The position numbers were made by a program, and so were the translations under genes. From Escherichia phage Ecwhy_1, in sequence record MH791411.1: a DNA stretch of 64,000 nucleotides, one strand, 5' to 3'. The notes beneath the pieces were generated by a model, which saw only the letters and a list, made by a program, of their open reading frames with translations, was not told where the DNA came from and did not search any database. Every line of letters begins with the position of its first letter. The stretch's first letter is position 1. This document shows positions 7,014 to 64,000 of the stretch, piece by piece.

Positions 7014-7032
7014 AATTACCTCCTATAAATGA

Positions 7033-8462: not shown

Positions 8463-9665
8463 TTATAGATAATACTTTCCAATGTAAAGTTTATTACTTA
8501 GTGATAGCTGGACGTGACAAGGTTTTTCTTGGTAGTAACGAGTTGATGCTGTTTTATTTTCAGTTGGTGGGAAGAAAGGAGAACGGTATCCATTCCATGT
8601 ACCAAATGATACATGTTCGTTTAAATCCACATCCATTGTCATAATACCATTAGCATCAATTTCAACTGGATACGCACTGTATCGTTCAAATACATCAGTG
8701 TATTGAAGAATATAATCACCATTGCGACCATAATAACTTCTGGTTGTATTGTTCTTTACACCAAAGAAAACACGATATGCCTGTTCATCAACTTTACACA
8801 TGAACGGTACGTTCTCATTGAATCGTCCATTACTCATTATATCATCAGGATTGATTTCTTCGTACTTTACTTTCAAATCTTGTGCTTTAAACGACTTATC
8901 ACTTATCAGTACTGGAATATTGCTTTCACATAATGGGTTACTGCGATTTCGTTGGATATTTTGCCAAAATGCATTAGCTTTAACAATTTCATCTTGAACT
9001 GTAGTTTTTACATTCAGTGCAGCACTTGGTTCTAACGCATAAGTTTCAAGACGAGCATTAAGAGCATATGTCCCACGAGTAGTATTATATACTAAGTGAT
9101 ACTTGGAACTCTTATCAGAAAATGAAAACTCTTTAGTTTTCTTGATACAAATAGCATTTACTTTACCACAATAATAGTAATCTTCCTTATTGTGTCTAAA
9201 ACCATCACCCACTTTCAATTTAGAAACAACTTCTTTTTGATGTTCTTTCTTATTCTCCTTCTCAACCAATTTAGCAAAGGTTTTAGTTTTACCGTTAATT
9301 AGTTCTAAACTATTATTAAAGAACATAGGTTCAACAAATACACCCTTAACAATATCATTGTTGATGATAAGGTCGTTCATGTTTTTAGCACTCACCAAGA
9401 ACTCGAAACCTTCAGGGTGACGTATGGTGAAGTATGTTTCGCGAGCATGAACAGTGAGCTTATGTACCACAGAAAACCCAATTGTAGGCACATTATCAAT
9501 CCATAGTGAAGGTAGATTGTTTTTCTTAGCCCAGTACTCGGCCTTTTCTTTTTTAGTCTCAAACGCTTTTGTGTGTGATTTTGTGGCATCTATAATGTAA
9601 CCAGTAACTTGGTTATGATTTACATATGAACGAGCCACAAATAACTTCTCTGGAAAATCCATCAA
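8463..9665 (-). CDS. hypothetical protein (400 aa)
   Basis: Long uninterrupted ORF; no motif recognised. Confidence 0.55.
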   Translation of the reverse strand: MMDFPEKLFVARSYVNHNQVTGYIIDATKSHTKAFETKKEKAEYWAKKNNLPSLWIDNVPTIGFSVVHKLTVHARETYFTIRHPEGFEFLVSAKNMNDLIINNDIVKGVFVEPMFFNNSLELINGKTKTFAKLVEKENKKEHQKEVVSKLKVGDGFRHNKEDYYYCGKVNAICIKKTKEFSFSDKSSKYHLVYNTTRGTYALNARLETYALEPSAALNVKTTVQDEIVKANAFWQNIQRNRSNPLCESNIPVLISDKSFKAQDLKVKYEEINPDDIMSNGRFNENVPFMCKVDEQAYRVFFGVKNNTTRSYYGRNGDYILQYTDVFERYSAYPVEIDANGIMTMDVDLNEHVSFGTWNGYRSPFFPPTENKTASTRYYQEKPCHVQLSLSNKLYIGKYYL

Positions 9666-10081
9666 ACAGTCCTCATTGTGCTAATTGCTTTTAATGTGTT
9701 AAACAATGCACCATATTTTACTTGCATTAGTTGATCCCCAGCAGGAAGATTCATACGCATAACAGACATGTCTTCAACCATTTCAGATGTACATAGTACT
9801 GCTACACATGTAGTTGCATCATTTAATCCGGCTTCATTGAATTTAGCGAATGGCACTTTTCCCTGCTTACAAAGGTCATCATAATAAGAATTTAACTTAT
9901 CATGACCACCAGCATTTAGTACTACAATAGTTTCGTGGTCATAATACCATTCATCAATAATAGTACTGAAAGCAGTACCTTCATATTCTTTAATTAGTTT
10001 TATGCCAGCATGAAATGCTTGAATGCCAGCTTGGACACCTTGACAGTACATGTTTGTTAAGCAATATAATTTCATTTCCAT
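9662..10081 (-). CDS. hypothetical protein (weak resemblance to PTH2-type peptidyl-tRNA hydrolase)
   Basis: 139 aa; pattern K-x-hydrophobic ... Q-x-x-H-A followed by hydrophobic strand resembles PTH2, by eye only. Confidence 0.45.
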   Translation of the reverse strand: MEMKLYCLTNMYCQGVQAGIQAFHAGIKLIKEYEGTAFSTIIDEWYYDHETIVVLNAGGHDKLNSYYDDLCKQGKVPFAKFNEAGLNDATTCVAVLCTSEMVEDMSVMRMNLPAGDQLMQVKYGALFNTLKAISTMRTV

Positions 10082-42634: not shown

Positions 42635-43221
42635 AGTAGATCCTTATACATTGCATGTATTCTTACAATGTCTCTGTAATAACTCATATCTTCACGATTA
42701 TCATTAAAAACAGTAACACTGAATACAGCAGTACTAATTGAACTATCAACAATGTACTCTTTTAATTTATTATAAAGATATATGCACTTAGTAGATGTAT
42801 CATCCCACATAAGACTATTTTGAAAGATGTTTTCTTCTGTGTTAGGATATAAGTACTGCTCAATCTTGTACTCCAATGAACTATCACAGTTTTTATATAC
42901 AGAAATAGATGGGACATTCATATTGCACATAATACTAATAACATTATCATTGTATGTAGAAATTAAACTGGTACTGGATGCTACACTTTCATCATAATTC
43001 AGTACTGAAATTCTTGCATTATCTGTGCAGTACAGATGTTTCATTCCACCTCTCATAGCCATAGTAAGAAATTTATCAGTGAACCATATTCCTTTTGTTT
43101 TCAGTATAGTTTCATGCATAAGATAAGTTTCAATGAAGATTTTTACACGCTCAAATGCCAAGTCAAGTTCATTGTACATAACGGATATCCTTCTGTAAAG
43201 AATCAATATATTCTTTAACAA
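42625..43221 (-). CDS. family A paralog
   Basis: 198 aa; E-E-N-I-F-Q-N-S-L-M-W-D. Confidence 0.55.
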   Translation of the reverse strand: MLKNILILYRRISVMYNELDLAFERVKIFIETYLMHETILKTKGIWFTDKFLTMAMRGGMKHLYCTDNARISVLNYDESVASSTSLISTYNDNVISIMCNMNVPSISVYKNCDSSLEYKIEQYLYPNTEENIFQNSLMWDDTSTKCIYLYNKLKEYIVDSSISTAVFSVTVFNDNREDMSYYRDIVRIHAMYKDLLCY

Positions 43222-43360
43222 CTTGTTCCTGATACTGTGTGCCCAAATACATCAGTACTTTTAATTCTTTGAATTCAGTACTATATGAGTCAATTTGCAT
43301 CATTTTAGAAGAATATATATTGAATAGTTTAGCAATATCATCTTGGTCTATTATTTTCAT
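43169..43360 (-). CDS. family B paralog (interspersed copy)
   Basis: 63 aa; Y-L-G-T-Q-Y-Q-E-Q-V-V. Confidence 0.45.
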   Translation of the reverse strand: MKIIDQDDIAKLFNIYSSKMMQIDSYSTEFKELKVLMYLGTQYQEQVVKEYIDSLQKDIRYVQ

Positions 43361-43556
43361 ATATTCTCTTCTGGATTAGTTCCTGTAAGTGCTGAATATA
43401 ACCCTTCATTGCAACATCCTGTTTGTTAGAGCCAACGAAGAACAATAGCTTAAAGTCATGGTAATCCATTTTTGGTTTAGTAGTGAACCATATGTCCCAC
43501 ACTGCACTCACAGTTCTCATGTATTCAATTCGATTAAATGTTTTTGAATACTTCAT
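43338..43556 (-). CDS. family B paralog (interspersed copy)
   Basis: 72 aa; F-V-G-S-N-K-Q-D-V. Confidence 0.45.
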   Translation of the reverse strand: MKYSKTFNRIEYMRTVSAVWDIWFTTKPKMDYHDFKLLFFVGSNKQDVAMKGYIQHLQELIQKRIYENNRPR

Positions 43557-53142: not shown

Positions 53143-53698
53143 AACTCAATACCTCCATTAAGCACTCATAAACACCATCAATCGCATAAGCACAAAAACT
53201 GAAATTAATTTTGTTATTCTTGTGTAATGGACTATTGTATACTGTACTCAACATAACACTATAAAACAAAGAACGTTCATGTGTAAATAATGATTCCTGA
53301 AAAAATGCTTCCTCTGATTTAATTTTATTATATTCAATCGATTGATCATTAGAATAAAATGAATCTTGATTTGAATTGTACCATGTGTAATCCAAATCAT
53401 TCTTTGATATAACTGGTGTTGGATTAAACTGTAAAAGACTAATAACACTACGGGCATTTGGGGTATCAGGTGTATTGAATCGTTTGTCAAAATAACTTGT
53501 GCACGCAATATGTGAATCAAAATCAGATGGTTTAAACCCCATGAATGCGTTAATGATTCTTGTATATGGTTTTTTATTATGTGCTGCTTTCTGTACATTA
53601 TATAAGGCTGCAACAATACAAGCTAACTTTTGTCCCATTAGGATTGCATTAGCGTAGGTGTACTGAATTTCATTGCTGGTACGGTACTTCGAGATCAT
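53129..53698 (-). CDS. family A paralog
   Basis: 189 aa; S-E-E-A-F-F-Q-E-S-L-F. Confidence 0.55.
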   Translation of the reverse strand: MISKYRTSNEIQYTYANAILMGQKLACIVAALYNVQKAAHNKKPYTRIINAFMGFKPSDFDSHIACTSYFDKRFNTPDTPNARSVISLLQFNPTPVISKNDLDYTWYNSNQDSFYSNDQSIEYNKIKSEEAFFQESLFTHERSLFYSVMLSTVYNSPLHKNNKINFSFCAYAIDGVYECLMEVLSYEAE

Positions 53699-53996
53699 GG
53701 AACAGCCTCACTTTGCCTAACTCGTCATTGGATATTAATTCGTTAACAGCTTTCTGTATATTCTTTAATAATAGCACATCAAATCCTTTTGTGTCAAGCA
53801 CACATTGCATTTGGAAGAATTCTTCTTCTGATAATGTATTAAAATCCACAAAATTGTCTAATATTACGTCATTATCCAAATGTGCCATGTACCATGTATT
53901 TCTTTCGGAGCGTTTGATAAAATTCCATCCATCTGGATAATCGGGTTCTAATTCTACATATATCCCTGATAATGTATAAAGCATTTTATACTTCAT
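53670..53996 (-). CDS. family A paralog (MKYKMLYTL pair)
   Basis: Track ORF (GTG at 54020) trimmed to ATG 53994-53996 by paralog comparison; S-E-E-E-F-F-Q-M-Q-C-V. Confidence 0.5.
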   Translation of the reverse strand: MKYKMLYTLSGIYVELEPDYPDGWNFIKRSERNTWYMAHLDNDVILDNFVDFNTLSEEEFFQMQCVLDTKGFDVLLLKNIQKAVNELISNDELGKVRLFHDLEVPYQQ

Positions 53997-54016
53997 AACT
54001 ATTGTACTCATTGCTT

Positions 54017-54328
54017 TCACTGTACGTCGATGTCATAATACGCTCCTACCTCATAATCTTTCTTGCTTTGGAATTCATTAACGGCTTTCTGTATATTTCT
54101 TAATGTTACCATGTCATGTCCGTACATGTCAACCACCAATTGCATTTGGAAAAATTCTTCTTCAGATAATGTATTAAAATCTATAAAATAATCCGTAACA
54201 ACCTGTGCGTCTAAATTTGCCATGTACCATTGATTGGTATCGACCTCTTTAACCAAATTCCATGCATCTGAATCGGATTCTAATTCTACATATATTAATG
54301 TTAATGTATACAGCATTTTATACTTCAT
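54017..54328 (-). CDS. family A paralog (MKYKMLYTL pair)
   Basis: 103 aa; S-E-E-E-F-F-Q-M-Q-L-V; AAGGA RBS. Confidence 0.55.
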   Translation of the reverse strand: MKYKMLYTLTLIYVELESDSDAWNLVKEVDTNQWYMANLDAQVVTDYFIDFNTLSEEEFFQMQLVVDMYGHDMVTLRNIQKAVNEFQSKKDYEVGAYYDIDVQ

Positions 54329-55211: not shown

Positions 55212-55622
55212 CTAATCGTGCCATTTAATAGGATACTCCGTTCCATTTATTGTATAAGATATAATCCATCCGTAATGAATAGGATGATTTTTGTCTGAAA
55301 CAGGAATAAAATATAAAGATGTACTGGGGTTATAACTGAATAAATCGTTGTTACCAATTGTAAAATGTGATAACTCAATCTTCCTTGTACCTGTACTTGG
55401 ACGAAGAACATTCTTAACACCGAAGACTGTACCTTGATATTTCTCGGAAAATTCAAACAATGCATCTGCAATTAAATCACGAAACTCCGCATGTATGGTT
55501 TCAAAAAAATCTATATTACACGATGTTTTAATATCCTTGAACTCCTTATATAAAGAGCTTCTTGTATTCAAAAGAAATATTACTTTTTTAAGATCCTGAA
55601 CTATTTCTGGATTCATATTCAT
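55212..55622 (-). CDS. hypothetical protein
   Basis: 136 aa ORF. Confidence 0.5.
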   Translation of the reverse strand: MNMNPEIVQDLKKVIFLLNTRSSLYKEFKDIKTSCNIDFFETIHAEFRDLIADALFEFSEKYQGTVFGVKNVLRPSTGTRKIELSHFTIGNNDLFSYNPSTSLYFIPVSDKNHPIHYGWIISYTINGTEYPIKWHD

Positions 55623-55872
55623 TTATCTCATTCTGTAACTTAAGCATCAAAATTTGCATATTAATTTTTTGTACAAGATGATTGAGAAATTTCTGTACTG
55701 TATCTTCTTGTTCTTTTGTACCAAGATAAAATAACATATTAAATTCAGATAATCTCAGAGCGAAATCTTCCTCTCCCCCTCGTAAACAAAAATCCCTGTA
55801 CTTTGAAGCATACAAATAAGCATCTATCTTTTTATACCTTTGGGTCTGCATTGTATCTCCTTTTTCATGCAC
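55588..55872 (-). CDS. family B paralog (interspersed copy)
   Basis: 94 aa; F-Y-L-G-T-K-E-Q-E-D-T-V. Confidence 0.5.
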   Translation of the reverse strand: MHEKGDTMQTQRYKKIDAYLYASKYRDFCLRGGEEDFALRLSEFNMLFYLGTKEQEDTVQKFLNHLVQKINMQILMLKLQNEINEYESRNSSGS

Positions 55873-56036
55873 CTTATTAGATTATCAACGTATTGATCCT
55901 GTACTATTGTCCCTAGATAAAATGATACTTCGAACTCTGATAATTTTATATTGAAAGGATCTACATATACATCTTTAATAAACTCTTTGTACTTCAACAT
56001 ATATGCATTAGGTATATTCTTATATATCGATTTCAA
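55824..56036 (-). CDS. family B paralog (interspersed copy)
   Basis: 70 aa; F-Y-L-G-T-I-V-Q-D-Q-Y-V. Confidence 0.5.
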   Translation of the reverse strand: MKSIYKNIPNAYMLKYKEFIKDVYVDPFNIKLSEFEVSFYLGTIVQDQYVDNLIRCMKKEIQCRPKGIKR

Positions 56037-56331
56037 TGATCCTCCCTGACATACCTTGTATTAGCTTATCATACATATCGAGCATCACTTTTTGAATACT
56101 AATTAATACTGGCATCGTGCAAATATCAATGTCGTATATTAAGCTGTACTGGAATAATTCCTCTTCCTGCATGTGTACTAAATTAGGTAAAAGATAATTG
56201 TCTGCCTCTTCATCCTGGTACTTGAAATGCATAACACCATCCTTTTTGTACAAAAGAATGTCAATATCACCTAACTCTTCTGCATAACCAAAAATACATA
56301 TACTCGATGTTTTTGCTATATTAAATTTCAT
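56020..56331 (-). CDS. family A paralog
   Basis: 103 aa; E-E-E-L-F-Q-Y-S-L-I-Y-D. Confidence 0.55.
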   Translation of the reverse strand: MKFNIAKTSSICIFGYAEELGDIDILLYKKDGVMHFKYQDEEADNYLLPNLVHMQEEELFQYSLIYDIDICTMPVLISIQKVMLDMYDKLIQGMSGRIIEIDI

Positions 56332-56340
56332 ATTCTTCTC

Positions 56341-56691
56341 TTATATGTAGAATTCACATACGCGTTGAACAAAATTCTTTGGAAGATGACAATGTGCAAT
56401 CATCTGCTTTTGTACTTCCTTCATGTCTTCGAATGTAAATCCTAAAGAATCATCATGTACTAACAAGTACTGAAACTCTTCTTCTTCAGAGATAGAACAT
56501 AAATTCGGTACTGAAATTGTTTTTGCTTTTCTTGCACCCAATTTCCAATGAAAAGAATTATTGCATTTTCTGTACTCAAATATCTTCAACCCAGAACCTG
56601 TATTAAAATCAGCTACTACAATGTAACATGAATTCTTACGTACAATACAATTGAACTTACGCATTATCTCCACCTCTCTCCGTCTGTACAA
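56341..56691 (-). CDS. family A paralog
   Basis: 116 aa; S-E-E-E-E-F-Q-Y-L-L-V-H-D. Confidence 0.55.
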   Translation of the reverse strand: MYRRREVEIMRKFNCIVRKNSCYIVVADFNTGSGLKIFEYRKCNNSFHWKLGARKAKTISVPNLCSISEEEEFQYLLVHDDSLGFTFEDMKEVQKQMIAHCHLPKNFVQRVCEFYI

Positions 56692-56970: not shown

Positions 56971-57345
56971 CTAGTATTGCACTGTTCTAATGAAAGTACC
57001 TTTACTCATGGATTTAAGCTTATGAACCTCTTCCTGTATACCCTTGATTAACCCTAAAGGTATAGGTACATCATGTACTAAGCTGTACTGAAAGTATTCT
57101 TCTTCAGATAAAGTACTAACATCTGGAATACCAATTTTAGTTATATAATCTTGATGTGTTGACCAATAAATTATATCTTCAGTACTATTGTACTCCCCAT
57201 ATACTGAACAATATTGATGAATATCTTTCATGTATCCTTGAGCAATAAAGAACTTATCTACTGCATTACCAGCATTAATAGAATTCACTTCGATTGTCAC
57301 AGTACTTGAGCTTGTTTTTCCTTTACTATGCATATTAATCCCCAA
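56971..57345 (-). CDS. family A paralog
   Basis: 124 aa; S-E-E-E-Y-F-Q-Y-S-L-V-H-D. Confidence 0.55.
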   Translation of the reverse strand: MGINMHSKGKTSSSTVTIEVNSINAGNAVDKFFIAQGYMKDIHQYCSVYGEYNSTEDIIYWSTHQDYITKIGIPDVSTLSEEEYFQYSLVHDVPIPLGLIKGIQEEVHKLKSMSKGTFIRTVQY

Positions 57346-57521
57346 ATTAGATATCGAACACTATCAGCTTGATAGTTAGTTCCTACTGTGTGTTTTAATA
57401 TTAACTCATCTTTCAGTACTGAACATTCTGCATTAGATATAGGAAGAGAATTAATTCTTTGAATTTCTGGTCGCAAAATACCGCGAAGCTTGCGGTAATC
57501 TTCGTATGATAATATTTTCAT
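57297..57521 (-). CDS. family B paralog (interspersed copy)
   Basis: 74 aa; V-G-T-N-Y-Q-A-D-S-V. Confidence 0.5.
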   Translation of the reverse strand: MKILSYEDYRKLRGILRPEIQRINSLPISNAECSVLKDELILKHTVGTNYQADSVRYLIWGLICIVKEKQAQVL

Positions 57522-57524
57522 TGT

Positions 57525-57866
57525 TTAGTACTCAACGATGTGTTCTTCATAACCATTAAACTCCGGTTTAGTTTCTTTCATTAGGACTACCATTTTATGT
57601 ACTAATGGCATAGGAAATTCTAAATCCCATACTAATGATTCTTGAAAGTATTCTTCTTCAGATAAAGTACTTAAATCTTTAATATCAACGTGCTTGTATA
57701 TTTTATTTTCGTAATTAAGAAATGATATATATAAATCATTAACATCAGAATCATAAGTAATTGTGAATGGCTTACCCTTGTAGTCCATTACATCTTTACA
57801 TAGACTGCATTTGATATATGTATGTTCTTCTGAACTGTATACATTGAGTTGTATATTAGTTTTCAT
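57525..57866 (-). CDS. family A paralog
   Basis: 113 aa; S-E-E-E-Y-F-Q-E-S-L-V-W-D. Confidence 0.55.
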   Translation of the reverse strand: MKTNIQLNVYSSEEHTYIKCSLCKDVMDYKGKPFTITYDSDVNDLYISFLNYENKIYKHVDIKDLSTLSEEEYFQESLVWDLEFPMPLVHKMVVLMKETKPEFNGYEEHIVEY

Positions 57867-58140
57867 ATTTCTCTTTATTAGCTTGTTTAGATTGTGTGGT
57901 TTTATAGTGAATTAAATCTATTAATGTAATCAAGTACAACGTCAAATAGTACTCTTGTTGATCTGTACCTAATGATACAAAGAACTTGTGCTCATAGATT
58001 AAAACCTGTTTCTCATAACAAGAACACTTAATCCTATGTATAGGTTTCAGTAAATGTGAGTACTTATTAAATCTCATACCCATTTCTATTTCAGATAGTA
58101 CTTTCATATTAAACATGTACTCCATTAGCTGTAGCATCAC
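57856..58140 (-). CDS. family B paralog
   Basis: 94 aa; S-L-G-T-D-Q-Q-E-Y-Y-L. Confidence 0.5.
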   Translation of the reverse strand: MMLQLMEYMFNMKVLSEIEMGMRFNKYSHLLKPIHRIKCSCYEKQVLIYEHKFFVSLGTDQQEYYLTLYLITLIDLIHYKTTQSKQANKEKYEN

Positions 58141-58330
58141 GTAAAGCTCTCAAATACTTCTGTACTGCTTGCTCTTGATGATCTGTACCTAAAAGTATAT
58201 ACATCCATAATTCACTGTAATGTACATCTTGTGTATAAGGGTTGTTGTAACTTTTTGATAATATAGCATCAAATTCAGATGCATGAACCCTTGCGAACTT
58301 AAGCATATCTTGTTGTGTTATGATTCTCAT
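58109..58330 (-). CDS. family B paralog
   Basis: 73 aa; L-G-T-D-H-Q-E-Q-A-V. Confidence 0.55.
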   Translation of the reverse strand: MRIITQQDMLKFARVHASEFDAILSKSYNNPYTQDVHYSELWMYILLGTDHQEQAVQKYLRALRDATANGVHV

Positions 58331-58542
58331 ATCTTTTCCTGTACTATCTGCATAAGAATCTCTATGTGTGAATTAACAGTTCTCTCTTGATGCTGTGTTC
58401 CTAAGAGTGTCAGTACTATCATATCTGAACGCAAAAGATTTTTTTCAAGTTCACTTATATCAGTTCTTGAATCAAGTGCCATATATTTGTGATTATTCTT
58501 CCTGAATAGTGCCAAGTACTCTTGATTTGATATTTCCTTCAT
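58327..58542 (-). CDS. family B paralog
   Basis: 71 aa; L-G-T-Q-H-Q-E-R-T-V. Confidence 0.55.
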   Translation of the reverse strand: MKEISNQEYLALFRKNNHKYMALDSRTDISELEKNLLRSDMIVLTLLGTQHQERTVNSHIEILMQIVQEKI

Positions 58543-58778
58543 AGTTTATCCCTGATGCCATTTAAAAGTGCTCTAATATGCTCCTGTACGAATTTGTACT
58601 GACTGTCTGTTCCTAGAGTGAGTAGTAATCTTAAATCTGAACTTTTGATATGATATTCTAAATCATTATTTGATTCTTGCATCAGTTTCTTAAAGGATGA
58701 GAAGTTTGCAGCCATTAGTTCAATGTATTCTGCTGTTCCTAGGGGTTTGTGTATTGGCTGTTTGTGCTGTCTGTGCAT
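58539..58778 (-). CDS. family B paralog
   Basis: 79 aa; L-G-T-D-S-Q-Y-K-F-V. Confidence 0.55.
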   Translation of the reverse strand: MHRQHKQPIHKPLGTAEYIELMAANFSSFKKLMQESNNDLEYHIKSSDLRLLLTLGTDSQYKFVQEHIRALLNGIRDKL

Positions 58779-58990
58779 TTTAATTTTATTACCCTTTTGA
58801 GTGTATTAATGTAATTATACACATTGGCTTCTTGATAGTTTGTTCCTAGAGTAGCTTGAACGTAGATTTCATTTAACTTAATAATTTTATCAGTATCTGG
58901 AAGTTTTGATGTGTTAATGGCAAATAACTTCGAAAACAGTCCATTTATGATTGTTAGGTATTCTTCGTCGGTAATGATTCGCATTTGCAT
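58739..58990 (-). CDS. family B paralog
   Basis: 83 aa; L-G-T-N-Y-Q-E-A-N-V. Confidence 0.55.
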   Translation of the reverse strand: MQMRIITDEEYLTIINGLFSKLFAINTSKLPDTDKIIKLNEIYVQATLGTNYQEANVYNYINTLKRVIKLKCTDSTNSQYTNP

Positions 58991-59196
58991 TGGATAAACC
59001 TTTTTAGTTCTTTGATGTAATCATTAATATTACATTCTTGATAGTTAGTCCCTAGGGTAGAATTAACATAGATTTCACTCATTAGAATATTTTTTTCTTC
59101 ATCAGGTAAATCTGTGGTCTTTGCTATATACAATTTTAGAATTAAACTACTTAATAGTTCGTGGTATTCACTTGGTGAAAGGATTTTCATTTGCAT
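58954..59196 (-). CDS. family B paralog
   Basis: 80 aa; L-G-T-N-Y-Q-E-C-N-I. Confidence 0.55.
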   Translation of the reverse strand: MQMKILSPSEYHELLSSLILKLYIAKTTDLPDEEKNILMSEIYVNSTLGTNYQECNINDYIKELKRFIQCKCESLPTKNT

Positions 59197-59402
59197 GTTC
59201 TCAGTACAGATTCTTTAAGTTCATCGATGTAGTCCTCAACGAATTGCTCTTGGAAGTTAGTTCCAACATATAAAAGAACTCTTAAATCTGCTCTAAGTAA
59301 CTCTTTTTCATCCTCATCTATATCAGACAATGTTATGTTTAAGAATTTACTTGTATTAAAGATTAACAATTCTGTTTGTTCACTGTGGCTTAAAATTTTC
59401 AT
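59187..59402 (-). CDS. family B paralog
   Basis: 71 aa; V-G-T-N-F-Q-E-Q-F-V. Confidence 0.55.
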   Translation of the reverse strand: MKILSHSEQTELLIFNTSKFLNITLSDIDEDEKELLRADLRVLLYVGTNFQEQFVEDYIDELKESVLRTCK

Positions 59403-59610
59403 AATCTCTTTTTGCTTTCCTCGACAGTAGGTACAAATACGATTCTTCGTATTGTGCTTGGAAGTTTGTGTTTAAGAGTCGAAACAACTTCTGTTCTGCT
59501 AGAACGAGTTGCTTATCTTCATAACAACGGTAGCGTATCAACTTTTTGTATTCGATGTTGATTACATCCATTACTATAAGCCCATGTTCATCATCTGTCA
59601 AGTGCTTCAT
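59380..59610 (-). CDS. family B paralog
   Basis: 76 aa; L-N-T-N-F-Q-A-Q-Y. Confidence 0.5.
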   Translation of the reverse strand: MKHLTDDEHGLIVMDVINIEYKKLIRYRCYEDKQLVLAEQKLFRLLNTNFQAQYEESYLYLLSRKAKRDYENFKPQ

Positions 59611-59848
59611 GCTTTTTTCTTTTCCTGATGTGTTTAGTTAAAAGGTATATTAGTTTTCTGATGTATTCTTCTTGATAGTTTGTTCCTAGGAGTGCCAGAA
59701 GTTTTGCTTCAACTAAAGCTAATTGACGTTCTTCAAATGTGTGTTCCAGTATGTACTTTGGGTTTGATTTTTTAGATATTGCACTATTAGTTTTCATTAC
59801 AATCTTATGATATTCATTAACTGTTAGGATTTTTAAATTCTTGAGCAT
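59591..59848 (-). CDS. family B paralog
   Basis: 85 aa; L-G-T-N-Y-Q-E-E-Y-I. Confidence 0.55.
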   Translation of the reverse strand: MLKNLKILTVNEYHKIVMKTNSAISKKSNPKYILEHTFEERQLALVEAKLLALLGTNYQEEYIRKLIYLLTKHIRKRKKHEALDR

Positions 59849-60074
59849 GTACCTTTTCCTTTATAGAGAATTTAAGATATCGAAGCATACTTTCAATGTA
59901 ATACTCTTGTCTGTCAGTGCCAAGAAAGTACATGAGTTGAATGTATAAAACTTCTGCACTCCTTTCGGCATGTGACTTGTTTGTGTCGTTTGGAAGTTGA
60001 TTTGTAAGTTTTCTGGATTTAATTAGTCGTTCTTTTAACTCATCGTCTGTTAAGTATTTCATTTCATTTTGCAT
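59817..60074 (-). CDS. family B paralog (MQNEM trio)
   Basis: 85 aa; F-L-G-T-D-R-Q-E-Y-Y-I. Confidence 0.55.
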   Translation of the reverse strand: MQNEMKYLTDDELKERLIKSRKLTNQLPNDTNKSHAERSAEVLYIQLMYFLGTDRQEYYIESMLRYLKFSIKEKVHAQEFKNPNS

Positions 60075-60294
60075 TTACTTTTTCCTTAATACTCATTACA
60101 AGATGTTCAATCATATTTTGAACCATAAATTCTTGTTTATCAGTTCCAAGAACGTATGGTAGCTTCTGAAACAATACATTCGCAGACATTTCATATATTG
60201 ATTGATTTGGAACGAACTTAAGAGTAATGTTATTGGCTTTTAACATCTTCTCTTGAAATTCTTCATTCGTTAAGTATATCATTTCACTTTGCAT
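60064..60294 (-). CDS. family B paralog (MQNEM trio)
   Basis: 76 aa; V-L-G-T-D-K-Q-E-F-M-V. Confidence 0.55.
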   Translation of the reverse strand: MQSEMIYLTNEEFQEKMLKANNITLKFVPNQSIYEMSANVLFQKLPYVLGTDKQEFMVQNMIEHLVMSIKEKVNAK

Positions 60295-60520
60295 TTACTT
60301 TTTCCATAATAGTAATTTTGAGATATTTAATTATACGTTCAATGTGATACTCTTGCCTATCAGTTCCAAGAATGTATGGTAATCTTTGGAATAAAACTTC
60401 TGCACTCCTTTCCGCTGGGGTTTGGTTTGGGTTGTGTGGAAGATATTTTGTAAGTTTTTTGGATTTATCTAGTCTTTCTGTTAACTCATCATGTGTTAAG
60501 TATATCATTTCATTTTGCAT
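60284..60520 (-). CDS. family B paralog (MQNEM trio)
   Basis: 78 aa; I-L-G-T-D-R-Q-E-Y-H-I. Confidence 0.55.
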   Translation of the reverse strand: MQNEMIYLTHDELTERLDKSKKLTKYLPHNPNQTPAERSAEVLFQRLPYILGTDRQEYHIERIIKYLKITIMEKVNAK

Positions 60521-60756
60521 TTAATGTTCCTTACGTAAATTGTCTGGATTAAACAATCAATCCAAGTTTGAATATATTGGTTTTGATACTGTGTGCCTAA
60601 GAGACTCTGCATTTTAAACTCTGCTTCAAGTTCATATCTCTTTTCTATAGAAAAGCTCAAATGACCATATTCTTTATCGTATCTTCTCAGTGCTTCCCCA
60701 ATTCTATCAAATCTTTCTGCTAATCTGATGTTATTCACAATATTCATCGCATTCAT
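60505..60756 (-). CDS. family B paralog
   Basis: 83 aa; L-G-T-Q-Y-Q-N-Q-Y-I. Confidence 0.55.
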   Translation of the reverse strand: MNAMNIVNNIRLAERFDRIGEALRRYDKEYGHLSFSIEKRYELEAEFKMQSLLGTQYQNQYIQTWIDCLIQTIYVRNIKCKMK

Positions 60757-61031
60757 CGATCAGTACACCTCAGTGGTTGGGTCATTTGATGAAAGTACAG
60801 CTTACCTCTGATTTCCAGTAGTAACTCAGCAATTAAGCGATTTACTTCTGGCTCTTGATAGTTTGTTCCTAAGAATACACCCATCTTTAACTCACGCATC
60901 ATAATCATTTTCTTACTGTGTTGAATTTCTGGGTTGTGATAGATTGTATTACGTTTGTGCGTAATTTTTGTCATACGCTCGGTATATTCATCTTTACTTA
61001 AATTGATCATTTGCATGTTCATCAACCTCAC
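60753..61031 (-). CDS. family B paralog
   Basis: 92 aa; L-G-T-N-Y-Q-E-P-E-V. Confidence 0.55.
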   Translation of the reverse strand: MRLMNMQMINLSKDEYTERMTKITHKRNTIYHNPEIQHSKKMIMMRELKMGVFLGTNYQEPEVNRLIAELLLEIRGKLYFHQMTQPLRCTDR

Positions 61032-61242
61032 ATTTATTTTCGATACAAATCATGAGTTCTCTAAGATAGTTTTTTACCTTACCTGCCTGATAGTTCGTCC
61101 CCAGGAAGTTGCATAACTCTGCTTCTATCATTTTGATTCTTCTGTTATCAGGTTTCAATTTTTTGTTATTGAAGATTTGAATCCTTATATCCCTTGATGC
61201 ATTTAAACGTTTTTGATATTCATGGAAAGATAAATTAATCAT
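60994..61242 (-). CDS. family B paralog
   Basis: 82 aa; L-G-T-N-Y-Q-A-G-K-V. Confidence 0.55.
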   Translation of the reverse strand: MINLSFHEYQKRLNASRDIRIQIFNNKKLKPDNRRIKMIEAELCNFLGTNYQAGKVKNYLRELMICIENKCEVDEHANDQFK

Positions 61243-61457
61243 TTACTTTGTATCTCTCTCTTGAGGGCATCAATTAACAACAGTACAGCATTCTCTTGAT
61301 AGTTTGTTCCTAAGACTGAAAGCATCTTAATCTCATTTACTACGATCAACTTCTTTGAGCGTTCAATAATGTTACTATTATAAACGGCGTTACGTGCTGG
61401 ATAAGTTTTTGCAAGACGTTCATAATATTCATCTTTACTTAAATTAATCATTTGCAT
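61239..61457 (-). CDS. family B paralog
   Basis: 72 aa; L-G-T-N-Y-Q-E-N-A-V. Confidence 0.55.
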   Translation of the reverse strand: MQMINLSKDEYYERLAKTYPARNAVYNSNIIERSKKLIVVNEIKMLSVLGTNYQENAVLLLIDALKREIQSK

Positions 61458-61666
61458 TTACTTTTGACCTCCTTGACTAATGCATCAACCCACATGTCTA
61501 TATACATTTGTTGATAGTTTGTCCCTATGAGTGCCCCTGCATAGAGTTCAGCTATCAATGCATGTTTTAGGTTGGCAGGGATGCTCTTATCAGATTGAAT
61601 CTTTACTCTTCTGTTGGCACATGTTTTCAGGAGTCTGATGTATTCAAAGCCTTGTAATTTTCTCAT
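61448..61666 (-). CDS. family B paralog
   Basis: 72 aa; I-G-T-N-Y-Q-Q-M-Y-I. Confidence 0.55.
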   Translation of the reverse strand: MRKLQGFEYIRLLKTCANRRVKIQSDKSIPANLKHALIAELYAGALIGTNYQQMYIDMWVDALVKEVKSKCK

Positions 61667-61878
61667 TCTTTTGATATCACCTTGTTACGTAAGGCACTTA
61701 ACAATACGTCAGTGTAGATGTTTTGATAGTTTGTTCCTACGAATACACCCAACTTCATTTCAGCTATTATAACACATTTGTCCTCTTGTGCAATAGACTT
61801 GTCTAAAGAAATACTAACAACTTTCCTTCTTATAGCTTGTAACCTCCAATGATACTGAAACTCATTTAGGGTTATCAT
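61663..61878 (-). CDS. family B paralog
   Basis: 71 aa; V-G-T-N-Y-Q-N-I-Y. Confidence 0.55.
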   Translation of the reverse strand: MITLNEFQYHWRLQAIRRKVVSISLDKSIAQEDKCVIIAEMKLGVFVGTNYQNIYTDVLLSALRNKVISKE

Positions 61879-62113
61879 TCTCTCGCCTCCATATCTCGGT
61901 TCTAATGTGTTGACATTGTGCTTCGATGAACATATCTATTGATTTGGCAATTGCTTTTTTATCAGTGCCTGTCATCAGTACAAGCATCTCGGCCTCACAG
62001 TGAAGTAAACGCATGATATCATAGGGTAATATTCCAGATACCGTGTCATAGTGTTTCTGTGCCAGTGTCTGTAATAGTTTACAATACATTTTGTGATTTA
62101 GTCTTTGTCGCAT
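61862..62113 (-). CDS. family B paralog (degenerate core)
   Basis: 83 aa; M-T-G-T-D-K-K-A-I. Confidence 0.45.
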   Translation of the reverse strand: MRQRLNHKMYCKLLQTLAQKHYDTVSGILPYDIMRLLHCEAEMLVLMTGTDKKAIAKSIDMFIEAQCQHIRTEIWRRENDNPK

Positions 62114-62370
62114 TGTCTATTCCATTCTTTTTTGGCCTTGATGGTTTTATATTGGATTTGGTTTCTTAATGCTGATAAGTATCGTTGAATGAACAGATCT
62201 TGATAGTTTGTTCCAATGAATTTCATAAGATAAAGTTCACCGTTGATAACATCCACTTCAGGTGCACCATATAAGGCATTGTTTTTTCTAAGGGCATGGA
62301 TTAAAGAGAATAGGGCAGTTTGATACTCAACTCCTGATAAAGTCTTCATGTTTTGTGAGCCAATAATCAT
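62098..62370 (-). CDS. family B paralog
   Basis: 90 aa; I-G-T-N-Y-Q-D-L-F-I. Confidence 0.55.
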   Translation of the reverse strand: MIIGSQNMKTLSGVEYQTALFSLIHALRKNNALYGAPEVDVINGELYLMKFIGTNYQDLFIQRYLSALRNQIQYKTIKAKKEWNRQCDKD

Positions 62371-62590
62371 CTAGTTTATCCTGTATAACATTCATTAATT
62401 GTTCGACATATTCTGTGCAAAACTTATCTTGATATTGAGTCCCCATAAAGTACAGCAACCATAGCTCATTAACTTTAGCTCGCATTTGGTTCCATGTAAG
62501 GCTGGGGTCATCGTAGACTATCCTTGCTATAGGGGTTAGTTTACGGACTATAGTTTCATATTCATCTAGTGTTAAGTGTTTCATTTGCAT
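62327..62590 (-). CDS. family B paralog
   Basis: 87 aa; M-G-T-Q-Y-Q-D-K-F. Confidence 0.55.
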   Translation of the reverse strand: MQMKHLTLDEYETIVRKLTPIARIVYDDPSLTWNQMRAKVNELWLLYFMGTQYQDKFCTEYVEQLMNVIQDKLDDYWLTKHEDFIRS

Positions 62591-62799
62591 TTGTCCCTTA
62601 TTAAATCAGTGAGGGCAACTATGTGTGCAACAACATACTCTTCCTGAAAGTTCGTCCCCAGTACAGCCATCATGCGTATATCGGTGGTGTTTATTCTGTG
62701 TTCCCTTACACATAAACCTTCTGTGTGAGGAAGTGTAAAATATTTGTTTATTGCAGCAACGATAATTTTATTCTTCTCGTAATTACTTAAATGTTTCAT
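62581..62799 (-). CDS. family B paralog
   Basis: 72 aa; L-G-T-N-F-Q-E-E-Y-V. Confidence 0.55.
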   Translation of the reverse strand: MKHLSNYEKNKIIVAAINKYFTLPHTEGLCVREHRINTTDIRMMAVLGTNFQEEYVVAHIVALTDLIRDKCK

Positions 62800-63008
62800 A
62801 GTTTGCTCTTAATGTATTTCTGGAGTGCAATTATATACTCATTCAAGAAGTGCTCCTGATAATCTGTGCCGAGGAATGCACCCAATAGTATATCATTTTC
62901 CAATACTAATGCTAAGTTTAAATCATCAGTCTCTTCATATACTATGAGAATTTCAAGTTGTCTGGCAGCGACGCGTTCGGTATATAGATTTGAGTTAATG
63001 CTATTCAT
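62796..63008 (-). CDS. family B paralog (near-identical pair)
   Basis: 70 aa; L-G-T-D-Y-Q-E-H-F-L; C-term Y-I-I-A-L-Q-K-Y-I-K-S-K-L. Confidence 0.55.
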   Translation of the reverse strand: MNSINSNLYTERVAARQLEILIVYEETDDLNLALVLENDILLGAFLGTDYQEHFLNEYIIALQKYIKSKL

Positions 63009-63217
63009 AGTTTACTCTTAATGTAATTCTGGAGTGCAATTAAGTATTCCCCTACATAATACACCTGAAAGTCTGTATCCAAAAATGCACCCATAAGTAA
63101 ATCTTTTTCTAATACCCTTGATAAGTTAAGGTCTGCATTTGAATTGTATATAATTAAGATTTTATTCTGGACAGAAACAAAACGTATCTTATATTCTTCT
63201 GGTGTTAAAAAAATCAT
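63005..63217 (-). CDS. family B paralog (near-identical pair)
   Basis: 70 aa; L-D-T-D-F-Q-V-Y-Y-V; C-term Y-L-I-A-L-Q-N-Y-I-K-S-K-L. Confidence 0.55.
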   Translation of the reverse strand: MIFLTPEEYKIRFVSVQNKILIIYNSNADLNLSRVLEKDLLMGAFLDTDFQVYYVGEYLIALQNYIKSKL

Positions 63218-63423
63218 AGTTTACTCTTAATATCTTCTATTAAAAAATGAATCCAATCATCAACATACTCTTCCTGATGGTTTGTGTTCAGTACAGCCAA
63301 CATGCGGATCTCTGCTCTTGCAACTTGGATTTCAGTTTTAGAAAGGTCTTTGCTGATATCAAACATTAAGTCCATGTATTTCAAGATAAGACCGAATGAT
63401 TGGGTTCGTGTTATAGTTTTCAT
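63214..63423 (-). CDS. family B paralog
   Basis: 69 aa; L-N-T-N-H-Q-E-E-Y-V. Confidence 0.55.
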   Translation of the reverse strand: MKTITRTQSFGLILKYMDLMFDISKDLSKTEIQVARAEIRMLAVLNTNHQEEYVDDWIHFLIEDIKSKL

Positions 63424-63620
63424 TGTTTCCTCGTGGACAATATTTCATTTTTCAATGCATCCATATATTGAATCACCCATCTTCCCTGATAGCTTGTACC
63501 CAATGTAATCAAAAGGTATAACTCAATTCGTTCTAAGTTTGTGTCTGTGTTATAAATCTTTACCATGTTTTTACGTAACAGTTCTTGATAATCTTCTTTA
63601 TTTAAAATACGCATTTTCAT
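63420..63620 (-). CDS. family B paralog
   Basis: 66 aa; L-G-T-S-Y-Q-G-R-W-V. Confidence 0.55.
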   Translation of the reverse strand: MKMRILNKEDYQELLRKNMVKIYNTDTNLERIELYLLITLGTSYQGRWVIQYMDALKNEILSTRKQ

Positions 63621-63814
63621 AGTCTACCTTTTATGTCCCTTCGTAATTCTTGTAAGTATAGTTCGATATACTTTTCTTGATAGTTAGTTCCTATGAAAAG
63701 TTTCATAACCAATTCACGCTTATATGCAATACCACGGATATGTGACATATGTAAGATATATGCCATGTTGGATATGAGTGTGTGGTTGTGCTCTTCTTGA
63801 GTTAAAATACGCAT
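63617..63814 (-). CDS. family B paralog (first gene of array)
   Basis: 65 aa; I-G-T-N-Y-Q-E-K-Y-I; GGAG RBS 7 nt before ATG at 63812-63814. Confidence 0.55.
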   Translation of the reverse strand: MRILTQEEHNHTLISNMAYILHMSHIRGIAYKRELVMKLFIGTNYQEKYIELYLQELRRDIKGRL

Positions 63815-63844
63815 AGGGACTCCATTAAAAATAATATCAATCCA

Positions 63845-63872
63845 ATAATATACGATTCATATAAAAAGTCAA
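63845..63872 (-). promoter_or_regulatory. sigma70-like promoter TTGACT-N16-TATTAT heading the family B array
   Basis: Revcomp of 63845-63872 = TTGACTttttatatgaatcgtaTATTAT, about 30 nt upstream of the first family B start. Confidence 0.45.
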
Positions 63873-64000
63873 TAACATTTTATAAGTAATACCCCTTTAT
63901 CGAAGTCGCTAAGGTTACCCGCCCTTTAGCCCCCTACGCATTTTGCCATAGTCCAATCCCTTTTTATTCATAAAAGTCAAGGGATTACCTATGCATTTTT

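What the first reader, a model, noticed from the sequence alone, without database searches (positions are those of the whole stretch)
58841..63695. Nucleotide-level conserved 18-20 bp core shared by family B genes
The plus strand repeatedly shows near-identical YTTGATAGTTNGTYCCTA: 58841-58858 and 59681-59698 (cttgatagtttgttccta), 60853-60872, 61304-61323, 61722-61740, 62199-62218, 61510-61529 (gttgatagtttgtccctatg), 63676-63695 and 59037-59057 (cttgatagttagt...). Its reverse complement encodes the G-T-N-Y-Q-E core. Conservation extends to synonymous positions in an otherwise diverged background. Identical short tracts spaced 200-300 bp apart are ideal substrates for homologous or template-switch recombination that could shuffle or expand the array.
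Basis: seen in the sequence. Interest (0 to 1): 0.5.

Follow-up and report, generated by a model that had tools for sequence, protein, structure and literature searches.

The report
Conserved codons in phage paralog array
The repeated 18-base tract is mostly the DNA footprint of a conserved loop (L-G-T-N-Y-Q-E) in about 30 tandem copies of a small jumbo-phage gene of unknown function, but two of its codons (AAC, TAT) are fixed beyond what codon usage explains, and the tract is only occasionally a recombination junction.

Summary
YTTGATAGTTNGTYCCTA occurs 11 times (0.03 expected). It is the reverse complement of G-T-N-Y-Q-E in at least 28 tandem minus-strand genes (57297-63814; phrog_4148, function unknown). 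The window is an Asteriusvirus (E. coli jumbo phage), and the array starts just inside the ~21 kb terminal repeat.

Twelve of the 18 bases are fixed by the amino acids. The wobble bases of the G, T, Q and E codons vary as at any other saturated site. Only Asn and Tyr are fixed: AAC 16/16 and TAT 16/16 in the window, 93% each over ten genomes. Background AAC usage is 25%, and AAC-TAT is the rarest spelling of N-Y (3/51). Codon bias therefore does not explain it.

None of these explains it either: recent ancestry, word avoidance, RNA structure, promoters, Rfam families, off-frame ORFs, or a general AAC preference at conserved Asn sites. The cause stays open.

Recombination is partly supported. 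Copy number differs between phages (20-32 copies in the stretches compared). All five whole-gene indels join at gene boundaries. Of five intragenic mosaics, one joins inside the core and one is ambiguous.

This is an ordinary paralog array carrying a small, real, unexplained codon anomaly.

The parts
57297..63814 (-). Tandem array of 28 family-B genes (65-93 aa, phrog_4148), interrupted only by one family-A gene at 57525-57866. Stop and start codons overlap or abut.
   Evidence: ORFs. PHROG matches E 1e-11 to 3e-23. HMM hits. Ortholog dN/dS about 0.35.
63674..63691 (-). Core GGA ACT AAC TAT CAA GAA (GTNYQE) in gene 63617-63814, the first gene of the array.
62197..62214 (-). Core GGA ACA AAC TAT CAA GAT (GTNYQD), gene 62098-62370.
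61720..61737 (-). Core GGA ACA AAC TAT CAA AAC (GTNYQN), gene 61663-61878.
61508..61525 (-). Core GGG ACA AAC TAT CAA CAA (GTNYQQ), gene 61448-61666.
61293..61310 (-). Core GGA ACA AAC TAT CAA GAG (GTNYQE), gene 61239-61457. This protein was modelled.
61084..61101 (-). Core GGG ACG AAC TAT CAG GCA (GTNYQA), gene 60994-61242.
60852..60869 (-). Core GGA ACA AAC TAT CAA GAG (GTNYQE), gene 60753-61022.
59669..59686 (-). Core GGA ACA AAC TAT CAA GAA (GTNYQE), gene 59591-59848.
59035..59052 (-). Core GGG ACT AAC TAT CAA GAA (GTNYQE), gene 58954-59196.
58829..58846 (-). Core GGA ACA AAC TAT CAA GAA (GTNYQE), gene 58739-58990.
57366..57383 (-). Core GGA ACT AAC TAT CAA GCT (GTNYQA), gene 57297-57521.
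57952..63500 (-). Seventeen further cores with variant residues (GTD.QE, GTQ.Q., NTN.Q., GTNFQE, GTSYQG, DTDFQV). First bases at 57952, 58172, 58384, 58596, 59247, 59455, 59904, 60130, 60350, 60580, 61952, 62426, 62641, 62853, 63062, 63271 and 63483. Asn is always AAC, Tyr always TAT and His always CAT; Asp is a GAT/GAC mix.
55588..56036 (-). Two outlying family-B genes, 55588-55872 (GTKEQE) and 55824-56036 (GTIVQD).
43169..43556 (-). Two outlying family-B genes, 43169-43360 (GTQYQE) and 43338-43556 (GSNKQD).
63845..63872 (-). Sigma-70-like promoter TTGACT-16-TATTAT about 30 nt upstream of the GGAG and ATG of the first array gene. Probable early promoter of the operon.
62579..62589 (.). Junction (GCAAATGAAA, stop/start overlap) of a one-gene copy-number difference against phage WPEC3.
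61014..61052 (.). A 38-nt junction interval at a gene boundary. It marks a 269-bp one-gene copy-number difference against SP27, PBECO4 and SD-15_S21.

Best explanation
The tract is the nucleotide shadow of a structural loop in a small protein.

The genes are about 30 tandem, co-oriented paralogs (65-93 aa) in an Asteriusvirus jumbo coliphage. They are probably early genes: they start about 100 bp inside the ~21 kb left terminal repeat and sit behind a sigma-70-like promoter.

Each protein is predicted with high confidence to be a four-helix bundle. G-T-N-Y-Q-E is the connector between helices 3 and 4:
- Gly ends helix 3.
- Thr makes a beta-bridge to the N-terminal strand.
- Asn (or Asp or Ser in other copies) caps helix 4.
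- Glu closes an N-x-x-E capping box (inferred from the model and from which residues are tolerated).

Purifying selection on these residues fixes 12 of the 18 bases. The rest of each gene has diverged to saturation.

On top of this, the third bases of the Asn and Tyr codons are held as C and T. This produces the invariant 8-mer AACTATCA. The constraint is real and specific to this motif, but its cause is not established.

The array changes by birth and death of whole genes. Illegitimate or unequal recombination acts at short homologies, mainly at gene boundaries. Occasional patch exchanges swap the C-terminal helix between paralogs, and one of these has an edge inside the core.
For: Shown:
- 11 matches against 0.03 expected.
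- The family is phrog_4148, with no Pfam match.
- It is restricted to Asteriusvirus: 35 phage records, and 96 protein clusters among which every source name is E. coli or an Escherichia phage and many lie on ~350 kb contigs.
- AF2 model: pLDDT 97.3, helices 8-17, 19-27, 33-47 and 54-71, with the motif at residues 50-55.
- Ortholog dN/dS is 0.34-0.40; paralog pS is 0.74.
- Per-column codon counts show that only N and Y are fixed.
- AAC is 25% of Asn codons in the background. Background N-Y dipeptides are AAT-TAT 22, AAT-TAC 15, AAC-TAC 11 and AAC-TAT 3.
- The N column has p = 4e-7 and is the top outlier of 72 conserved columns.
- Over ten genomes, AAC:AAT is 141:11 and TAT:TAC is 128:9.
- Copy number is 20-32 per stretch compared.
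- Five whole-gene indel junctions lie at gene boundaries.
- One patch exchange switches at AAC|T and ends at the stop codon.
- The array starts at 21,091 in fEgEco12, whose terminal repeat is 20,993 bp (PMC13070987).
- Promoter-like site upstream of the first gene.

Inferred: the helix-capping roles of the residues, early expression, and the function of the proteins.
Against: - The protein-motif explanation does not account for the AAC and TAT fixation.
- The structure is a prediction built from 26 paralogs only.
- No expression data were available.
- Only ten junctions were resolved, from ten genomes, so a moderate hotspot at the core cannot be excluded.
- Family function is unknown. There is no PDB match, and the BFVD hits are family members only.
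Confidence: 0.7

Rival explanations
1. The invariant block AACTATCA(A) is a cis-acting nucleic-acid element embedded in the coding sequence. It could be a binding or processing site on the polycistronic early mRNA or on the DNA, and selection on it holds the two wobble bases.
For: - AAC and TAT are fixed against codon and codon-pair usage.
- The two fixed wobble bases lie inside the longest invariant block. In the N-Y copies the Gln codon is also CAA 10/11 and the Gly codon is always GGR.
- The bias persists in divergent species: 121Q 12:1, Turkey5 7:1, A4 12:1.
- There is no general AAC preference at conserved Asn sites.
Against: - Half of the copies (D, Q, S and other variants) lack the block yet are maintained.
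- AAC is fixed whatever the next codon is, and TAT whatever the previous codon is. That ties each bias to its own amino acid rather than to one contiguous site.
- No conserved RNA structure (0 pairs) and no Rfam match.
- Promoter-like sites are not enriched (41 found against 49 expected).
- No antisense copy of the core in the window or in the left 50 kb of fEgEco12.
- The 17-mer is at chance level in IMG/VR.
- The 8-mer is not clearly enriched outside the family: 8 of the 19 hits lie elsewhere, against 5.6 expected for the whole window.
Confidence: 0.15
2. The identical tracts are maintained as, or behave as, recombination or template-switch anchors that shuffle and expand the array. Homogenisation of the centre of the tract is a by-product of heteroduplex repair or short-patch conversion between cores.
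For: - The core is the main reservoir of exact matches between non-adjacent paralogs (42 of 77 matches of 11 nt or more).
- One clear exchange replaced the stretch from the Asn codon to the stop codon with a paralog's sequence. It is shared by UB, SP27, ph0011, PBECO4, SD-15 and 121Q.
- One fusion of two adjacent paralogs in phage A4 has a junction interval that includes the core.
- The fixed wobble bases are the interior ones of the invariant block.
- Family A's own motif also has a fixed Tyr codon (TAC 13/14). That would fit a homology-dependent process acting in both arrays.
Against: - All five whole-gene indels join at gene boundaries.
- 1-2 of 10 junctions in about 8% of the unit length is no enrichment.
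- Wobble bases 3-6 nt away (the G and T codons) are fully randomised, and adjacent genes do not share them more often than expected (5 of 27 against about 0.28 expected, counted by hand).
- Only 4% of paralog pairs share 17 nt or more.
- No chimeras relative to the window were found in 273 genes using the half-gene test.
Confidence: 0.12
3. The bias is a translation-level effect at a critical residue. AAC would be kept because AAU is more prone to Lys misincorporation in E. coli, or because the codon pair sets the local elongation rate at the loop between two helices.
For: - The bias is tied to the amino acid. Asn is always AAC, while Asp in the same column is a GAT/GAC mix.
- New Asn codons derived from GAT are AAT.
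- Lys misincorporation at Asn in E. coli was seen only at an AAU codon (PMC6449291).
- Asn is the predicted helix N-cap.
Against: - No AAC excess at conserved Asn sites in 101 other gene pairs: 26% against 24%, OR 1.1, p = 0.62.
- The other motif codons (GGA, ACA, TAT, CAA) are not the ones E. coli prefers (GGC, ACC, TAC, CAG in the table quoted).
- The TAT fixation has no accuracy rationale.
- Recent proteome-wide data did not find Lys at AAU in wild-type ribosomes (PMC12258882).
Confidence: 0.12
4. The identity is inherited. The copies with identical cores are a recently expanded or recently gene-converted subfamily.
For: A few adjacent pairs are close paralogs: 60064/60284/59817 at about 78%, and the 3' ends of 62796 and 63005 at 88-90%.
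Against: - The eleven N-Y copies, and the six copies with the identical 15-mer, are 23-24% identical in protein outside the core.
- They share codons at identical residues no more often (0.45-0.47) than any other class of pairs (0.44-0.46).
- Paralog pS is 0.74.
- The G and T wobble bases inside the tract are randomised.
Confidence: 0.04
5. Codon-usage bias, together with the amino-acid motif, is enough to give the nucleotide identity.
For: ACA, TAT and CAA are the commonest codons for their amino acids in this genome.
Against: - AAC is the minor Asn codon (25%), GGA is 23%, and AAC-TAT is the rarest N-Y codon pair (3/51).
- About 0.1 identical 15-mers are expected among 11 copies; six are observed.
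- No word created by the alternative codons is avoided genome-wide, apart from a mild deficit of CCWGG.
Confidence: 0.01

Closest known systems
Tandem multigene families of large DNA viruses that expand, contract and diversify by unequal or illegitimate recombination (for example poxvirus 'genomic accordions' and ASFV multigene families; from my own knowledge, not tested here)
   Same: Many co-oriented short paralogs next to a genome end. Copy number differs between close relatives. Junctions lie at short homologies. The proteins are very divergent around a small conserved core.
   Different: No evidence here of rapid adaptive amplification. The paralogs are ancient (synonymous sites saturated). 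The function and any target of the family are unknown.
PHROG family phrog_4148 (unknown function)
   Same: All five family-B proteins tested match over nearly their full length, E 1e-11 to 3e-23.
   Different: The PHROG carries no functional annotation, so membership names the family without explaining it.
Helix N-capping box (S/T/N/D-x-x-E) with a Gly C-cap of the preceding helix (established protein-structure knowledge)
   Same: The motif sits exactly between two predicted helices. The residues tolerated at the third motif position are mainly N, D, Q and S. Glu follows three residues later.
   Different: This is inferred from a predicted model only. It explains the amino-acid conservation, not the codon choice.
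Synonymous-constraint elements inside viral coding sequences, i.e. overlapping cis-acting RNA or DNA signals (from my own knowledge)
   Same: Site-specific suppression of synonymous variation against the genome's own codon preference.
   Different: Only two wobble positions are affected. No structure, known RNA family, overlapping ORF or promoter was found.
AAC codons of diversity-generating retroelement target regions (from my own knowledge)
   Same: An Asn codon kept as AAC at a position that varies between copies.
   Different: The variants at that position include GAT, CAG, CAA, AAA, ATA and CGT, which adenine mutagenesis of AAC cannot produce. No template/variable repeat pair was seen. 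The variation is between ancient paralogs, not within one gene.

Membership tests
phrog_4148 | Significant full-length match to the family HMM | tested here: met
   E 1.4e-11 to 2.8e-23, covering 70-74 of 74 profile positions, for five array proteins.
Any Pfam family | Score above the gathering threshold | tested here: not met
   No family reaches threshold. The best hit is 15.4 bits against a cut-off of 27.
Tandem paralog array evolving by birth and death (accordion-like) | Tandem, co-oriented homologous genes | tested here: met
   28 consecutive minus-strand genes plus 4 outliers.
Tandem paralog array evolving by birth and death (accordion-like) | Copy-number polymorphism between close relatives, with junctions at shared sequence | tested here: met
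   20-32 copies per stretch compared. Five whole-gene indels have junctions in 10-58 nt shared tracts at gene boundaries.
Tandem paralog array evolving by birth and death (accordion-like) | Recent adaptive amplification (near-identical copies) | tested here: not met
   Paralog pS is 0.74 and mean protein identity about 20%. The only near-identical duplicate seen is a family-A gene in WPEC3.
   One junction is clearly in the core and one is ambiguous, out of ten resolved. The sample is too small to exclude a modest excess.
Structured cis-acting RNA or known RNA family | Conserved secondary structure with covariation, or an Rfam match | tested here: not met
   RNAalifold found 0 pairs on 28 copies, core plus or minus 45 nt. 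Rfam gave no match at E up to 1.
Internal or antisense sigma-70 promoter at the core (TTGATA as a -35 element) | A -35/-10 pair with correct spacing, recurring at the core | tested here: not met
   41 promoter-like sites against 49.4 expected. None is anchored on the core.
Diversity-generating retroelement target | Variants explained by adenine-specific changes of a template (NNC codons) | tested here: not met
   The variants GAT, CAG, CAA, AAA, ATA and CGT occur at the Asn position.
Diversity-generating retroelement target | A reverse transcriptase and a template repeat nearby | not tested
   No search for a reverse transcriptase was run in the window.
Trans-acting antisense RNA target | A complementary sequence encoded elsewhere in the genome | tested here: inconclusive
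   No antisense-strand copy within 3 mismatches, beyond one AT-rich chance hit, in the 64 kb window or in fEgEco12 1-50 kb. About 290 kb of the genome was not examined.

The most novel reading that the evidence does not exclude
The invariant AACTATCA(A) block is a functional nucleic-acid signal written into the loop codons of half the copies of an early-gene array. It could be a recognition site on the early polycistronic mRNA or on the DNA, or a template-switch anchor that lets the phage swap the C-terminal helix between paralogs and so diversify a host-takeover or anti-defence protein family.
Probability: 0.15. Interest if true: 0.65.

Novelty: new member of a known kind. Interest (0 to 1): 0.35.

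Why it matters
Jumbo-phage genomes are full of unannotated tandem paralog arrays, and this analysis gives one of them some anatomy:
- a confidently predicted four-helix fold with a capping-loop motif;
- a position next to the terminal repeat, behind a host-type promoter;
- a documented mode of change, namely whole-gene gain and loss at gene boundaries plus occasional swaps of the C-terminal helix.

The codon result is small but clean. Two synonymous sites are held against the genome's own codon and codon-pair preferences across species whose other synonymous sites are saturated. If a cis-acting signal or a recombination-linked process turns out to be responsible, it would be a compact example of a second code inside a phage gene family. 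If not, the tract is simply a protein motif seen at the DNA level.

Tried and rejected
- Codon-usage and codon-pair bias: rejected.
- Recent common ancestry or gene conversion of the identical copies: rejected.
- General preference for AAC at conserved Asn sites (Akashi-type test on 101 ortholog pairs against 121Q): negative.
- Avoidance of words created by the alternative codons: none, except a mild CCWGG deficit that is relevant only to TAC-CAG-G.
- Conserved RNA structure: none.
- Rfam: none.
- Antisense or internal promoters: not enriched.
- Off-frame ORFs or recoding downstream of the core: stops within 0-21 codons in all but one copy.
- tRNA genes in the window: none.
- Antisense copies of the core in the ~114 kb held: none.
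- The 17-mer in IMG/VR: 13 single hits, at chance level.
- DGR-like mutagenesis: the variants are incompatible with it.
- Local homogenisation between neighbouring genes: no adjacency effect on the G-codon wobble base (counted by hand).
- The search for related loci with the family alignment failed because no stretch was conserved enough.
- Fold searches gave no functional lead.
- The first ungapped junction routine gave meaningless results wherever flanks contained indels (rows with more than 50 mismatches). Those events were re-examined by eye.
- Phage CMSTMSU (an 'UNVERIFIED' record) carries many single-base frameshifts that mimic chimeras, so it was excluded.
- The literature on Asteriusvirus genomes does not mention this family.

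Full report
**What the window is.** Bases 57000-64000 match E. coli and Salmonella jumbo phages of the genus Asteriusvirus (PBECO4/121Q group). The best match is 97.8% to phage WPEC5, and every annotated gene under the match is 'hypothetical protein'. G+C is 29-38% and nearly all ORFs lie on the minus strand.

**The observation.** YTTGATAGTTNGTYCCTA occurs 11 times on the plus strand with up to 2 mismatches; shuffles give 0.03. Two copies were missed (57368; 61086 with 2 mismatches). The reverse complement reads (L)-G-T-N-Y-Q-E in minus-strand ORFs.

**The gene family.**
- Twenty-eight consecutive minus-strand genes of 65-93 aa between 57297 and 63814 carry the motif or a variant: GTD.QE, GTQ.Q., NTN.Q., DTDFQV, GTSYQG.
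- Four more members lie at 55588-56036 and 43169-43556.
- The proteins match phrog_4148 (unknown function; E down to 3e-23) and no Pfam family.
- tblastn finds the family in 35 phage records, all Escherichia or Salmonella Asteriusvirus.
- A profile search of 5.8 billion proteins returns 96 clusters. Every source name among them is E. coli or an Escherichia phage, and many lie on ~350 kb contigs.
- Orthologs evolve with dN/dS of 0.34-0.40, so these are real genes. Paralogs are saturated at synonymous sites (pS 0.74).

**Predicted structure.**
- AlphaFold2 run on the 26-paralog alignment gives pLDDT 97.3 and pTM 0.83, with four helices (8-17, 19-27, 33-47, 54-71).
- G50-T51-N52-Y53-Q54-E55 forms the helix 3/helix 4 connector. 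T51 makes a beta-bridge to residue 4.
- Position 3 tolerates mainly N, D, Q and S, and Glu follows three residues later. I read this as a Gly C-cap followed by an N-x-x-E capping box. That is an inference from general protein-structure knowledge.
- No solved structure resembles the model (best E 2.1). Among viral models only family members match.

**Genomic setting.**
- In fEgEco12 the array begins at 21,091. That is about 100 bp after the 20,993-bp direct terminal repeat reported for this phage (PMC13070987).
- In the window, a sigma-70-like promoter (TTGACT-16-TATTAT, 63872-63845) precedes the GGAG and ATG of the first gene.
- Stop and start codons overlap along the array.
- I infer an early, host-RNA-polymerase-transcribed operon. 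There are no expression data.

**How much of the nucleotide identity is just the protein motif?**
- Twelve of the 18 bases are first and second codon positions of conserved residues.
- Among the 32 window copies the Gly codon is GGA 13, GGG 6, GGC 6, GGT 4.
- Thr is ACA 20, ACT 9, ACG 2. Gln is CAA 21, CAG 10. Glu is GAA 9, GAG 9.
- The same-codon fractions for these columns (0.28-0.55) are like those of other columns.
- Among orthologs, the G and T wobble bases are polymorphic in 13/35 and 15/36 orthogroups, which is not conserved at all.
- The Asn codon, by contrast, is AAC in 16/16 copies and the Tyr codon is TAT in 16/16. His at that position is CAT in 3/3.
- In the eleven N-Y copies Gln is CAA 10/11 and Gly is always GGR.

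**Is that codon usage?** No.
- In 122 other minus-strand genes AAC is 25% of Asn codons and TAT is 58% of Tyr codons.
- Background N-Y dipeptides are written AAT-TAT 22, AAT-TAC 15, AAC-TAC 11 and AAC-TAT 3.
- I tested all 72 columns of two paralog families that hold at least 9 copies of one residue. The Asn column is the strongest outlier (p = 4e-7 against usage elsewhere in the same family). The Tyr column gives 1.9e-4.
- The expected number of GTNYQ copies spelling GGAACAAACTATCAA is about 0.1 of 11; six do.

**Is it shared ancestry?** No.
- Outside the core the N-Y copies, and the six copies with the identical 15-mer, are 23-24% identical in protein.
- They share codons at identical residues at 0.45-0.47, the same as all other classes of pairs.

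**Persistence in other phages.** The bias holds in 121Q (AAC 12:1), Turkey5 (7:1) and A4 (12:1). Over ten genomes the totals are AAC 141: AAT 11 and TAT 128: TAC 9. Most AAT cases sit in orthogroups that are otherwise GAT, so they look like new Asn codons derived from Asp, or they precede Lys or Arg codons. Asp copies are a GAT/GAC mix.

**Explanations tested for the two fixed wobble bases.**
- *Translational accuracy in general.* In 101 ortholog pairs between the window and 121Q, AAC is 26% at conserved Asn sites and 24% at variable ones (OR 1.1, p = 0.62). The literature does show Lys misincorporation at an AAU codon and not at AAC codons in E. coli (PMC6449291). A proteome-wide study did not see this in wild-type cells (PMC12258882).
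- *Word avoidance.* No word created by AAT or TAC is under-represented, except CCWGG (21 against 40), which matters only for TAC-CAG-G.
- *RNA structure.* RNAalifold predicts 0 pairs.
- *Known RNA families.* None.
- *Promoters.* 41 sites found against 49 expected, none anchored on the core.
- *Recoding or overlapping ORFs.* Off-frame stops follow within 0-21 codons in all but one copy.
- *Antisense partner.* None in the window or in the left 50 kb of fEgEco12.
- *A signal shared with other phages.* The 17-mer gives 13 single hits in IMG/VR, which is chance level.
- *DGR-type mutagenesis.* The variants at that position are not NNC codons.

Family A in the same window (motif EEE-Y-F-Q) has a Tyr column fixed the other way, TAC 13/14 (p = 4e-4). 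Site-specific codon fixation inside the most conserved motif may therefore be a feature of these arrays rather than of this one sequence. The cause remains open.

**Recombination: copy number and exact matches.** Family copy number in the stretches compared is 20-32, and the order of two genes (DTDFQV and GTDYQ[EK]) is swapped between phage groups. Exact matches of 11 nt or more between window paralogs fall on the core in 42 of 77 cases, the longest being 23 nt. Only 16 of 378 pairs share 17 nt or more.

**Recombination: whole-gene differences.** Five were resolved, and all have their junction at the stop/start overlap or in the first ~12 codons:
- an extra gene in WPEC3 and ph0011 at 62579-62589 (GCAAATGAAA);
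- an extra 269 bp in SP27, PBECO4 and SD-15 at 61014-61052;
- an extra gene in WPEC3 joined within the shared 5' end at 61402-61459;
- loss of gene 60064-60294 in SP27, at the ...GTAAATGCAAA boundary;
- a 206-bp loss in SP27 at 58976-58980 / 59182-59186.

**Recombination: intragenic mosaics.** A two-segment identity scan over 277 genes gave 27 discordant pairs, which I grouped by eye into five events.
1. In the first gene of the array, UB, SP27, ph0011, PBECO4, SD-15 and 121Q carry the 5' part of the 63617-type gene. It is joined at AAC|T, inside the core, to the 3' part of the NTNHQE-type gene. The patch ends at the stop codon.
2. Phage A4 has a fusion of the two adjacent paralogs 58739 and 58954. 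Its junction lies between the core and +40, so it is ambiguous.
3. and 4. Two events switch 20-35 nt downstream of the core.
5. One event switches near codon 16.

A half-gene test against the window found no chimera among 273 genes. Apparent chimeras in CMSTMSU are frameshift errors in an 'UNVERIFIED' record.

**What the recombination data mean.** The core is used at least once as an exchange edge. That exchange swaps the C-terminal helix as a module. With one or two junctions out of ten in about 8% of the unit length, there is no evidence that the core is the preferred substrate. Gene boundaries clearly are.

**Verdict.** The tract is real and non-random, and it is mainly the DNA image of a helix-capping loop in an Asteriusvirus-specific family of small, probably early, proteins. 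There it is strong, it runs against codon and codon-pair bias, and it is unexplained. The recombination interpretation is partly supported: copy-number variation and one core-junction exchange exist, but whole-gene turnover uses other homologies.

Noticed in passing
window 17882-57866 (for example 53670-54328, 56020-56691, 56971-57345, 57525-57866): A second paralog family ('family A', about 29 members, motif S-T-L-S-E-E-E-Y/F-F-Q; phrog_13866 and relatives) fills much of the window. Its motif has a Tyr column fixed as TAC (13/14, p = 4e-4) while the adjacent Phe column is TTT 14 / TTC 15.
   Followed up: partly
L001 (WPEC3) 6526-7220 against window 57525-57866: WPEC3 carries a tandem duplicate (356 bp extra) of the family-A gene that interrupts the family-B array. 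The window has one copy.
   Followed up: partly
window 62796-63217 against L003 (UB) 9575-10019, L006, L007: The order of the DTDFQV and GTDYQ[E/K] genes is swapped between the window/SP27/WPEC3 group and the UB/PBECO4/SD-15 group. The two genes share nearly identical 3' ends (88-90%) but have 5' parts only ~58% identical.
   Followed up: partly
L002 (MH494197.1, phage CMSTMSU): This 'UNVERIFIED_ORG' record has many single-base indels that break family genes (for example GTNFQE read as GRTFRK). Only 15 CDS are annotated under the 7-kb match, where related records have 26-33. It mimics chimeras and should be excluded from comparative work.
   Followed up: yes
window 63845-63872 and 63960-63990, minus strand: A strong sigma-70-like promoter (TTGACT-16-TATTAT) lies just upstream of the first array gene. 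A second TTGACT lies about 100 nt further upstream. In fEgEco12 the ~21 kb direct terminal repeat ends about 100 bp upstream of the orthologous first array gene, so the repeat boundary should lie close to this end of the window.
   Followed up: partly
window 57297-63814, gene 5' ends: Many family-B genes start with ATGCAAATGA... (MQM...) overlapping the previous stop codon. The N-terminal Leu column is TTA in 15/20 copies (p = 1.5e-4). These boundary sequences are the actual junctions of the copy-number changes.
   Followed up: partly
window, whole: CCWGG (the Dcm/EcoRII site) is at about half its expected frequency (21 against 40).
   Followed up: no
window 55841-56008 against L001 4996-5011: WPEC3 lacks about 152-166 bp here, fusing the two outlying family-B genes 55588-55872 and 55824-56036 into one 252-bp gene. 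The junction was only roughly placed (55841-55849 / 55993-56001, with 23 mismatches in 316 bp).
   Followed up: partly
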